NCBI RefSeq assembly: GCF_055900595.2
Contig: NZ_CM148325.1
Length of the DNA stretch: 64,000 nucleotides
Reading direction: 5' to 3' (one strand)
Position numbers: made by a program
In this document: positions 62,424 to 64,000 of the stretch, one piece after another
How positions within the stretch are numbered: the stretch's first letter is position 1
Layout of the letters: each line of letters begins with the position of its first letter

Positions 62424-64000
62424 TAAATTATACCCCAAAAGTAACTTGATACGGGGTGAAGGCGGTTGGCCTCTGGTTACAAAGAAATCCTGATATATAA
62501 GGGATTAGAGGGGGTTTTGTTGACGTCGGGAGAGTTCAGAAGAGGCATGTTGGCGGAAGATCACAGATGGTGACCAGCTTGGCATTAAAGTGGTTATAGG
62601 CATAAAAGCGCACACCAAATACCCAGGGTTTCAGCAAGGGATTATTGGTCGGGATCTGCCGGTGGTGTCCTGCTAATACCCGGCTGGCCGTTTCATCATA
62701 AAATTCAAGCAGTTCAATGATGTCTTTAACTGTCGTGGGAGGAAAATCCTCGCATTCACGTATTACAGCCGACATGACTTTACCAGATACCCGGGAAATA
62801 TGGCCTTCAGCAATCTTACGTATCAAGCTTTCCGTACATGGCGGTCAGGATGAATGACATTTTGCAATTCTGCGATATATGGTGCCAGAAGCTGGCTAAA
62901 AACACGCTTCTCTTCATGACTGGCAAGGCCATAGCACGACATGTACTTGTCAGCTAAGCTGACCAAATACTGTGCTGAGTTCCGACCAGTTATGGTAGTT
63001 ATAACGTAATGCCACTGCATCCCGGGCGTAGCTTAGATTGATATTGAGCGACCGTGAAAGGTATTTGGCGTGGGCTTTTGCTTCAGCGCATGTGGGGATT
63101 TGTTTCATGGTTTAAGTCTCTTATCTGTCCTATGTGCTCACGAATCATAAGAATCAAAGACACTTAACCAAAAAAGATTTGATAAGTCTGCGCTGCATTC
63201 CGCTTTGGCCGTGAGCTGCCGGGTCGCGCTAACCTTGTGCTTAACGTATTGGAAAGTAGCACCATTGTCAACAGAGCCATTGACCCTGCCGGGCTAACAG
63301 AGAGGTTAGACATGAAGCGAGGTGCGATGCTGGCAGGCATCAGGTGAGGGGCTGATACCACACTTCTGCCATGGTTTCTGAATTATCAATGTCCGCTTTT
63401 GGGCATAGACGAGATTCATGCTCGGCAGGGACCGTAGCAAGCGAAAAGCGGAGGTTCGGGAAGGTTGTGATTTGCTTTTAACCTTTGTAATTTAGAAGTA
63501 TTATTTTAAGATTAATCCACTTCCCATCGTCATCCTTTCGGTGTTCGTGAAAAGCTATTTTTAAGGTTATTGCCTCATGGAGTTATGGATATTTATAGTA
63601 GCGATTTATTTGATTTATATTCTTTTTTTCAAAAAGAAGAAAACTAAGTCCGCGGGCTCTTATACTTCCGCTCCTGTGAAAGCACCACCTAAAGAATGGC
63701 TTGCTAATAACAAAAAAAATCAGTCTGTAATGCACAACGAGGACAGCGAAGATGACAATCTGGCTACGTTTACACTAAGTGGCGGGCGGAATGCCGAATA
63801 CAGTATAACAGCCACTCAACGCCAGAATTTCTCAAAAACTACCGGTGCTTTGGCTCGCTGGATTTTACCGGGGGAGGTGATCACAGTCGGTGGGGTAGAG
63901 GTTACCGGCGGCTACTTCTATCTTGGACAGCGAATGAACCCTGTCGGGCATAACTCAGGCGGTTATTATGATGATAGTAGCGAGGCATCGCTAATTGACG

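What the first reader, a model, noticed from the sequence alone, without database searches (positions are those of the whole stretch)
62536..64000. Uncharacterised genes at the distal end of the window: a frameshifted gene and a membrane-anchored protein
Neither the disrupted gene at 62536-63110 nor the partial ORF from 63577 resembles anything I can place by eye. The latter has an N-terminal TM anchor and a Gly-rich soluble region (..VGGVEVTGGYFYLGQRM..). They sit beyond IS21 debris in the island, the kind of position where phage-defence or other accessory functions are often found.
Basis: inference. Interest (0 to 1): 0.35.

Follow-up and report, generated by a model that had tools for sequence, protein, structure and literature searches.

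The report
Shango defence gene start plus pseudogene
The open reading frame cut off by the end of the window is the start of sngA, the first gene of the known Shango anti-phage system of E. coli, and the "frameshifted gene" beside it is a dead, truncated remnant of an uncharacterised gene, so the locus is ordinary.

Summary
Both observations are real. The ORF at 63577-64000(+) is the first 141 codons of a 769-aa TerB_N/TerB/TerB_C protein. It is 100% identical to the protein in near-identical complete E. coli genomes, where a BrxD-like ATPase and a DEAD/DEAH helicase follow it. PADLOC calls the three genes SngA, SngB and SngC (E 2e-102, 1e-187, 8e-278), which is the Shango system. The Shango that Millman et al. 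2022 validated was cloned from E. coli KTE113. That insert starts at the position matching window 63108 and is about 95% identical over the roughly 400 nt of its sequence that I could read. The "Gly-rich region" is the start of the TerB_N domain.

The gene at 62536-63108(-) is a pseudogene of a conserved 302-aa protein with no Pfam, NCBIfam, PHROG or PADLOC match. It has one extra base, one missing base, and a 3' truncation after codon 181. The truncation lies exactly where a 16-nt tRNA-Sec 3' end begins, followed by the integrase-side arm of a selC-type island. In most intact loci examined a T5orf172/GIY-YIG gene follows it; that gene is absent here. The defence-island guess was right, but sngA is not uncharacterised. 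Novelty: already known. Interest is low.

The parts
63577..64000 (+). 5' end of sngA (codons 1-141 of 769), the first gene of the Shango defence operon; the rest of sngA, sngB and sngC lie beyond the window end
   Evidence: 141/141 aa identical to L001 13228-15537. The full protein matches PADLOC SngA at 2.2e-102 and Pfam TerB_N, TerB and TerB_C.
63583..63633 (+). Predicted N-terminal transmembrane helix of SngA (about aa 3-19, LWIFIVAIYLIYILFF), followed by KKKK; by the positive-inside rule the bulk of the protein faces the cytoplasm
   Evidence: Kyte-Doolittle mean 2.4 over 17 aa. The same helix plus lysine run occurs in 100 of 106 full-length homologues, down to 52% identity. The orientation is inferred.
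63868..64000 (+).
   Evidence: Pfam PF13208 match at aa 98-309, E 1.4e-49.
63109..63576 (.). 468-bp divergent intergenic region holding the native sngA promoter region
   Evidence: About 95% identical over the roughly 400 nt of the E. coli KTE113 Shango insert that could be read; that insert was tested under its native promoter. Also conserved in Salmonella. No Rfam match, no folding signal (z = 0.65) and only weak promoter-like hexamers.
62566..63108 (-). Pseudogene: codons 1-181 of a conserved 302-aa hypothetical protein, with +1 nt at 62952 and -1 nt between 62834 and 62835. The conserved C-terminal domain (REWD motif, W207, G227) is missing.
   Evidence: Intact orthologues are P0001, P0003 and P0005.
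62536..62565 (-). Tail of the third ORF piece, which is not part of the original gene: it reads through the att core into foreign sequence up to a chance stop codon
   Evidence: Alignment A1 shows homology to intact genes ending at 62566.
62551..62566 (-). 16-nt 3' end of tRNA-Sec (CTGTGATCTTCCGCCA), an att core of selC-type islands. It is not a tRNA gene.
   Evidence: Matches the 3' end of annotated tRNA-Sec in about 2600 E. coli genomes. ARAGORN finds no tRNA anywhere in the window.
62362..62550 (-). Integrase-proximal arm of a selC-type island (the sequence that lies between selC and its tyrosine integrase elsewhere). The integrase itself is missing and replaced by IS21 debris.
   Evidence: Alignment A3 with the selC-int intergenic regions of ABU 83972 and DL21.
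62049..62342 (-). IS21-family istB fragment (context; left boundary of the feature)
   Evidence: ORF. RefSeq annotates it as 'ATP-binding protein, incomplete', next to a degraded 'Mu transposase domain' fragment, in near-identical sequence.

Best explanation
The right-hand ORF is the beginning of sngA, the first gene of a Shango anti-phage operon (sngA-sngB-sngC) that continues past the window end. The locus sits in a mosaic island inserted at the argW tRNA-Arg gene of E. coli. SngA is a 769-aa protein with one N-terminal membrane-anchoring helix. After the helix come TerB_N, TerB and TerB_C domains, predicted to face the cytoplasm. SngB is a BrxD-like P-loop ATPase, and SngC is an Lhr/BrxHI-like DEAD/DEAH helicase.

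Proposed mechanism, inferred and not shown: SngA acts as a membrane-tethered sensor or scaffold at the inner membrane, where phage DNA enters or membrane perturbation occurs. It recruits or activates the SngB ATPase and SngC helicase, which use ATP to act on phage DNA or replication intermediates and block phage multiplication. No nuclease or toxin domain was detected in the three proteins.

The left-hand gene is a decayed remnant of a separate cassette: a 302-aa protein (N-terminal helical domain, C-terminal alpha/beta domain with weak GNAT-like fold) usually followed by a T5orf172/GIY-YIG gene. In this lineage the gene took two frameshifts. Everything beyond codon 181, including the GIY-YIG gene, was lost at a junction with a selC-type att core. 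It is non-functional here.
For: Identity of sngA:
- 100% identity to the full-length protein in FY10.
- PADLOC calls SngA 2e-102, SngB 1e-187 and SngC 8e-278 for the three consecutive genes, with matching Pfam domains.
- The same operon is present in AMSCJX02, A33 and Salmonella.

Function:
- Shango was shown to protect E. coli and P. aeruginosa from phages.
- The validated E. coli system came from KTE113. Its insert begins at the position matching window 63108 and is about 95% identical over the roughly 400 nt that could be read.

Membrane anchor: conserved in 100 of 106 full-length homologues.

Pseudogene:
- Intact 302-aa orthologues exist and the lesions are mapped exactly.
- The lesions are shared by other complete genomes.
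- The family's conserved residues lie beyond the truncation point.
- The GIY-YIG gene is present in intact loci and absent here.

att remnant. argW location.
Against: - Only 141 of 769 codons of sngA are in the window. That sngB and sngC follow in this particular genome is inferred from genomes 99.8-99.9% identical over 62350-64000.
- The mechanism of Shango is unknown in the literature I could read. [quoted passage not shown] The sensor/scaffold model is therefore inference from domain content and the membrane anchor.
- TM topology was judged from hydropathy and the positive-inside rule only, not with a dedicated predictor.
- How the gene became joined exactly to the att core is not explained. 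The intact gene has no convincing secondary att site at the break (my reading of the sequences).
Confidence: 0.9

Rival explanations
1. The TerB protein is a tellurite-resistance or general stress protein, as some RefSeq records name it ('tellurite resistance TerB family protein'), not a phage-defence component.
For: Pfam TerB, TerB_N and TerB_C domains. Several source annotations use this name.
Against: No terZ, terA, terC, terD or terE genes lie within 12 kb. The protein sits in a fixed three-gene operon with an ATPase and a helicase that matches the Shango profiles end to end. The orthologous operon from E. coli KTE113 was validated as anti-phage.
Confidence: 0.03
2. The ATPase and helicase belong to a BREX (type 2, Pgl-like) system, and the TerB protein is an accessory to it.
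For: SngB hits BrxD (1e-43) and Pfam BrxC_BrxD (2e-151). SngC hits BrxHI (1.6e-115).
Against: The Sng profiles score far higher, for example 622 against 148 bits for SngB. No PglX methyltransferase, PglZ phosphatase or BrxC/PglY is annotated within 12 kb on either side in FY10 or AMSCJX02. NCBIfam BrxD scores 146 bits against a cutoff of 350.
Confidence: 0.03
3. The frameshifted gene is still functional, through programmed frameshifting or as separate small proteins, or the frameshifts are sequencing errors.
For: RefSeq annotates two of the pieces as 'hypothetical protein' CDSs. The allele is kept in about 159 genomes.
Against: There are two shifts of opposite sign. The gene is truncated before the family's most conserved residues (R184, E185, D187, W207, G227), and the downstream GIY-YIG gene is gone. 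The lesions are identical in independent complete assemblies, which excludes sequencing error. Intact orthologues need no frameshift. The allele's persistence is explained by clonal inheritance of the island.
Confidence: 0.04
4. The 302-aa gene and its GIY-YIG neighbour are accessory parts of this Shango variant (a five-gene system), so Shango here is crippled by their loss.
For: The pair lies divergently next to Shango, with the same 468-bp spacer, in Salmonella and E. coli A33.
Against: The validated KTE113 insert starts just after the pair's start codon, so it excludes the pair, yet it protects. The pair occurs without Shango in E. coli 47-1826, Providencia and Pectobacterium. Shango occurs without the pair in Pseudomonas.
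Confidence: 0.05

Closest known systems
Shango defence system (SngA/SngB/SngC) of E. coli KTE113 (Millman et al. 2022) and P. aeruginosa PA14 (Johnson et al. 2022)
   Same: Same three-gene order and domain content: a TerB protein, a BrxD-like ATPase and a DEAD/DEAH helicase. All three genes match the PADLOC Sng profiles. The upstream region is about 95% identical to the readable part of the KTE113 clone, and SngA starts MEFWIFIIAIYLIYI there against MELWIFIVAIYLIYI here.
   Different: Only an allelic difference from KTE113. Only the first 141 codons lie in the window. SngA here (769 aa) is about 240 aa longer than the PADLOC SngA profile (528 positions). It carries an N-terminal TM helix that the papers read here do not mention for SngA.
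BREX accessory proteins BrxD and BrxHI
   Same: SngB and SngC are their closest relatives outside Shango. Both are ATP-driven proteins of a defence system with unknown mechanism.
   Different: No PglX, PglZ or BrxC in the neighbourhood. The scores are far below those for the Sng profiles.
Other TerB-containing defence systems: Bunzi (BnzA) and Dionysus (DinB)
   Same: Each has a TerB domain protein proposed to watch the membrane. A membrane link is also predicted here.
   Different: The partner genes differ: Dionysus has a pore-forming toxin, while Shango has an ATPase and a helicase. SngA also has TerB_N and TerB_C domains.
T5orf172/GIY-YIG-linked 302-aa protein family (unnamed)
   Same: The pseudogene is 97% identical over its 181 retained codons to intact members.
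   Different: The window copy is frameshifted twice, lacks codons 182-302 and lacks the GIY-YIG neighbour. The family itself has no described function and no entry in Pfam, NCBIfam, PHROGs or PADLOC.
selC (tRNA-Sec) integrated genomic islands with P4-like tyrosine integrases
   Same: The 16-nt tRNA-Sec 3' end and about 190 nt of the adjoining integrase-upstream arm are present, at 82-95% identity to selC loci.
   Different: No tRNA-Sec body and no integrase. The remnant lies inside an island at argW and abuts the interior of a gene.

Membership tests
Shango defence system | SngA: a TerB-domain protein matching the SngA profile | tested here: met
   The full-length protein, whose first 141 aa are identical to the window ORF, matches PADLOC SngA at 2.2e-102 and Pfam TerB_N, TerB and TerB_C.
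Shango defence system | SngB ATPase encoded immediately downstream of sngA | tested here: met
   Met in near-identical genomes FY10 and AMSCJX02 (SngB 1.3e-187). It lies beyond base 64000, so it cannot be seen in the window itself.
Shango defence system | SngC DEAD/DEAH helicase encoded downstream of sngB | tested here: met
   SngC 8e-278, with Pfam DEAD and Helicase_C, in the same genomes. It lies beyond the window end.
Shango defence system | Protects against phage infection | not testable with these tools
   Shown for the orthologous E. coli KTE113 operon, whose readable upstream region is about 95% identical, and for P. aeruginosa PA14. Not shown for this allele.
Tellurite resistance ter operon | TerB encoded together with terZ, terA, terC, terD and terE | tested here: not met
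   No such genes within 12 kb in FY10 or AMSCJX02.
BREX (type 2 / Pgl-like) | PglX methyltransferase and PglZ phosphatase encoded with BrxD/BrxHI | tested here: not met
   None annotated within 12 kb. BrxD and BrxHI are only second-best profile matches.
GNAT acyl-CoA N-acyltransferases (for the intact 302-aa family) | GNAT fold | tested here: inconclusive
GNAT acyl-CoA N-acyltransferases (for the intact 302-aa family) | Sequence membership (a Pfam acetyltransferase family) and the acetyl-CoA loop Q/R-x-x-G-x-G/A | tested here: not met
   No acetyltransferase Pfam hit in any of 36 members. The segment between the strand hairpin and the long helix (aa 189-207) has no Gly-rich loop. The conserved residues are instead R184, E185, D187 and W207.
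302-aa + T5orf172/GIY-YIG gene pair | Intact 302-aa gene followed within 1-2 nt by a T5orf172/MUG113 gene | tested here: not met
   The window copy ends at codon 181 and the neighbouring gene is absent. Intact pairs are seen in L003, L005, L007, L010, L013 and L014.
tRNA-Sec gene (selC) | Complete tRNA with cloverleaf and UCA anticodon | tested here: not met
   ARAGORN finds no tRNA in the window. Only the last 16 nt are present.

The most novel reading that the evidence does not exclude
The 302-aa protein (helical N-domain plus a GNAT-like C-domain with a conserved R-E-x-D motif) and its T5orf172/GIY-YIG neighbour may form an undescribed two-gene defence or addiction cassette. It travels in the cargo regions of integrative islands next to Shango, CBASS, TIR proteins and restriction systems, and the window holds a decayed copy of it. 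The effector may be exchangeable, since an HD-domain gene takes the place of GIY-YIG in one distant locus.
Probability: 0.3. Interest if true: 0.4.

Novelty: already known. Interest (0 to 1): 0.15.

Why it matters
It matters little for this window. The live element is a Shango operon orthologous to the one already validated from E. coli, and the other gene is dead.

Three small points may be useful to others:
- Enterobacterial SngA carries a conserved N-terminal membrane anchor, with its TerB domains predicted on the cytoplasmic side. This gives a concrete handle for testing the 'membrane surveillance' idea for Shango, whose mechanism is still unknown.
- The pseudogene points to a small uncharacterised family of about 54 clusters at 50% identity. 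It is usually paired with a GIY-YIG nuclease-like gene in defence-rich island cargo, so the pair is a cheap candidate for a defence screen.
- The selC att core fused to the interior of a gene inside an argW island shows how these islands are patched together from pieces of elements with different tRNA targets.

Tried and rejected
- **Family searches for the 302-aa protein.** Pfam, NCBIfam, PHROGs and PADLOC gave nothing. The only signal was a non-significant Glyoxalase_8 N-terminal match, E 0.12 for the repaired window protein and 0.026 for one family member.
- **PDB sequence search with the family profile.** Nothing below E 0.3.
- **Fold searches.** Foldseek against PDB and BFVD found nothing significant. 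The afdb50 library was not available.
- **tblastn of the 302-aa protein against plasmids and phages.** No match. This rejects the idea that it is a plasmid leading-region or phage gene.
- **Shared adapter domain in the partners.** The GIY-YIG and HD partners share no N-terminal domain, so this was rejected.
- **Intergenic region 63109-63576.** No Rfam match, no terminator, promoter-like hexamers about as frequent as in shuffled sequence, and a folding z-score of 0.65. No regulatory RNA is claimed.
- **Repeats in 61300-64000.** Nothing meaningful.
- **Secondary-site integration into the gene.** I considered this as the origin of the junction. The intact gene shares only ATCTTnnGCC with the att core, and in a register that does not reproduce the observed junction, so I do not claim it.
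- **Anantharaman et al. 2012 on TerB-N/TerB-C.** The paper is not held. What I say about it rests on its citation and on my own memory.
- **Literature on Shango mechanism or Sng proteins.** No mechanistic paper was found.

Full report
**Observation.** On the minus strand, three overlapping ORF pieces (62950-63108, 62823-63020 and 62536-62826) form one disrupted gene. An ORF starting at ATG 63577 on the plus strand runs off the window end. The IS21 debris to the left (61590-62342) is annotated as degraded transposase and helper-ATPase fragments in near-identical RefSeq genomes.

**Where the window comes from.** Bases 62350-64000 match 163 complete E. coli chromosomes over at least 80% of their length. 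About 160 of these are at 99% identity or more, the best being strain FY10 at 99.9% without gaps. In FY10 the locus lies in a mosaic island next to the argW tRNA-Arg gene. The order is:
- yfdC, tRNA-Arg, integrase, papB-like gene, IS3;
- a 786-aa HsdR_N-domain protein and a 338-aa hypothetical protein;
- helicase, ATPase and TerB protein;
- the pseudogene, then IS21 debris, an MFS transporter and an alcohol dehydrogenase, and more IS elements.

**The partial ORF is sngA of Shango.**
- Its 141 codons are identical to the start of a 769-aa protein in FY10.
- That protein has Pfam TerB_N (aa 98-309), TerB (519-624) and TerB_C (644-768) domains.
- The next two genes are a 438-aa BrxC/BrxD-family ATPase and a 732-aa DEAD/DEAH helicase.
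- The PADLOC profiles call them SngA (2e-102), SngB (1e-187) and SngC (8e-278). BrxD and BrxHI are distant second-best matches.
- Shango was described as a TerB + ATPase + helicase anti-phage system by Millman et al. 2022 and Johnson et al. 2022.
- The supplementary table of Millman et al. lists the tested system as coming from E. coli KTE113. Its insert begins at the position matching window 63108, directly after the start codon of the divergent gene. It is about 95% identical to the window over the roughly 400 nt that I could read. Its SngA starts MEFWIFIIAIYLIYI, against MELWIFIVAIYLIYI here.
- The window therefore holds the promoter region and 5' end of an orthologue of the experimentally validated system.
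- That sngB and sngC follow in this particular genome is inferred from the near-identical genomes.

- The N-terminal hydrophobic stretch is a good single transmembrane helix followed by KKKK.
- The same arrangement occurs in 100 of 106 full-length homologues, down to 52% identity.
- By the positive-inside rule the TerB domains face the cytoplasm, where SngB and SngC are. This orientation is inference.
- The papers I read draw transmembrane helices only for Bunzi BnzA and do not mention one for SngA. This is a small addition, not a new finding of kind.
- The 'Gly-rich soluble region' is aa 104-120, the first strands of TerB_N.

**How Shango probably works.** The literature held here gives no mechanism. 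[quoted passage not shown] My best-supported model has three steps.
- SngA is tethered to the inner membrane. This is predicted from sequence.
- SngA senses an infection-linked event at the membrane and recruits or activates SngB and SngC. This is inferred.
- SngB, a BrxD-like ATPase, and SngC, an Lhr/BrxHI-like SF2 helicase, act on phage DNA with ATP. This is inferred from the domains.
- None of the three proteins showed a nuclease or toxin domain.
- I give the outline about 0.4 probability. The identification as Shango gets about 0.9 or more.

**The frameshifted gene.**
- A search with the repaired translation found intact 302-aa orthologues. P0001 is 91% identical (BLASTP against my first hand reconstruction) and stands for 504 member sequences. 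Others come from Providencia and Pectobacterium.
- DNA alignment shows an extra base at 62952, a missing base between 62834 and 62835, and loss of homology after 62566, which is codon 181.
- Repairing the two indels gives 175/181 identity to P0001.
- FY10 and AMSCJX02 carry the same lesions.
- Of 169 complete E. coli genomes with the gene, 159 have only the first 544 nt and 10 have the intact gene.
- The family is small: 54 cluster representatives at 50% identity, all about 300 aa. It has no entry in Pfam, NCBIfam, PHROGs or PADLOC. It has no tblastn match in the plasmid or phage collections.
- An AlphaFold model built on 36 members is confident (pLDDT 92, pTM 0.90). It shows an N-terminal helical domain and a C-terminal alpha/beta domain.
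- The family's conserved residues (Y169, R184, E185, D187, W207, G227) lie in the C-terminal domain. No acetyl-CoA-type glycine loop is apparent. I therefore call the domain GNAT-like in fold only.
- All but one of those conserved residues (Y169) lie beyond the truncation point, so the window copy is dead.

**Partner and context of the intact gene.**
- In Providencia, Pectobacterium, Salmonella, two E. coli strains and two metagenomic contigs, a T5orf172/MUG113 (GIY-YIG-like) gene of about 268 aa follows the 302-aa gene. It is split in one of the metagenomic contigs.
- This neighbour diverges in step with the 302-aa gene: 35% against 34% identity.
- Other distant members are followed by an HD-domain gene or by unrelated genes.
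- The neighbourhoods are rich in defence genes. They include Shango (Salmonella, E. coli A33), CBASS with BrxR and a PLD protein (Pectobacterium), and TIR proteins, a WYL regulator and type I restriction (E. coli 47-1826). All lie inside integrative islands.
- The pair is therefore a plausible uncharacterised defence or addiction cassette, but nothing tests that here.
- The pair is not needed for Shango. The validated clone excludes it, and each occurs without the other.

**The truncation point.**
- Directly after codon 181 comes CTGTGATCTTCCGCCA, the last 16 nt of tRNA-Sec.
- About 190 nt follow that are homologous to the stretch between selC and its tyrosine integrase in other E. coli.
- The integrase itself is replaced by the IS21 fragment.
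- No tRNA is present.
- This is an att core with the integrase-side arm of a selC-type island, now stranded inside an argW island.
- I could not establish how it became joined to the middle of the gene. A secondary-site integration does not fit the junction sequence. A deletion ending exactly at the core would be a coincidence.

**Comparison with known systems, and verdict.**
- The live feature is a member of Shango on every criterion that could be tested.
- It is not a ter operon and not BREX: their defining partner genes are absent.
However, the membrane-anchored protein is not uncharacterised, and the frameshifted gene is a remnant.
- Novelty: already known. Interest: low (0.15).
- The most novel reading left open is that the 302-aa + GIY-YIG pair is a new two-gene defence cassette. 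I give this a probability of about 0.3, and it would be of moderate interest if true.

Noticed in passing
window 62362-62566: A 16-nt tRNA-Sec 3' end and about 190 nt of the selC-to-integrase arm of a selC-type island lie inside an island that sits at argW. They are fused to the interior of the pseudogene. The integrase is replaced by IS21 debris.
   Followed up: yes
L001 19534-20550 and L007 2210-3226 (beyond the window end): A 338-aa hypothetical protein with no Pfam, PADLOC or NCBIfam match lies about 480 bp downstream of sngC, on the same strand, in both E. coli FY10/AMSCJX02 and Salmonella. It is absent from E. coli A33. It could be an accessory gene or a separate cargo gene.
   Followed up: partly
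L001 21194-23554 (beyond the window end): A 786-aa protein with only an HsdR_N (type I restriction R, N-terminal) domain and weak methyltransferase-profile hits lies between Shango and the argW integrase. It may be another defence gene.
   Followed up: no
L012 136-2166: A distant member of the 302-aa family (P0021) is followed by an HD_4-domain gene and a small Xre/MbcA/ParS_C-like gene instead of the GIY-YIG gene. This suggests exchangeable effectors.
   Followed up: partly
L005 12146-17712 (Pectobacterium): A CBASS operon (SMODS cyclase, HORMA, TRIP13-like AAA, Cap17-like PNP effector, RNase_T exonuclease) with a BrxR/WYL regulator lies directly beside the intact 302-aa + GIY-YIG pair, and a PLD-domain protein lies on the other side.
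   Followed up: no
window 59017-61303 (-): An intact MFS transporter (429 aa) and a zinc-dependent alcohol dehydrogenase (341 aa) overlap by 29 nt. They sit between IS3/IS30 debris and the IS21 debris, as a metabolic cargo pair within the island.
   Followed up: no
L001 13228-15537 (SngA aa 310-518): About 200 aa between TerB_N and TerB match no Pfam domain. This makes the enterobacterial SngA about 240 aa longer than the PADLOC SngA profile (769 aa against 528 positions).
   Followed up: no
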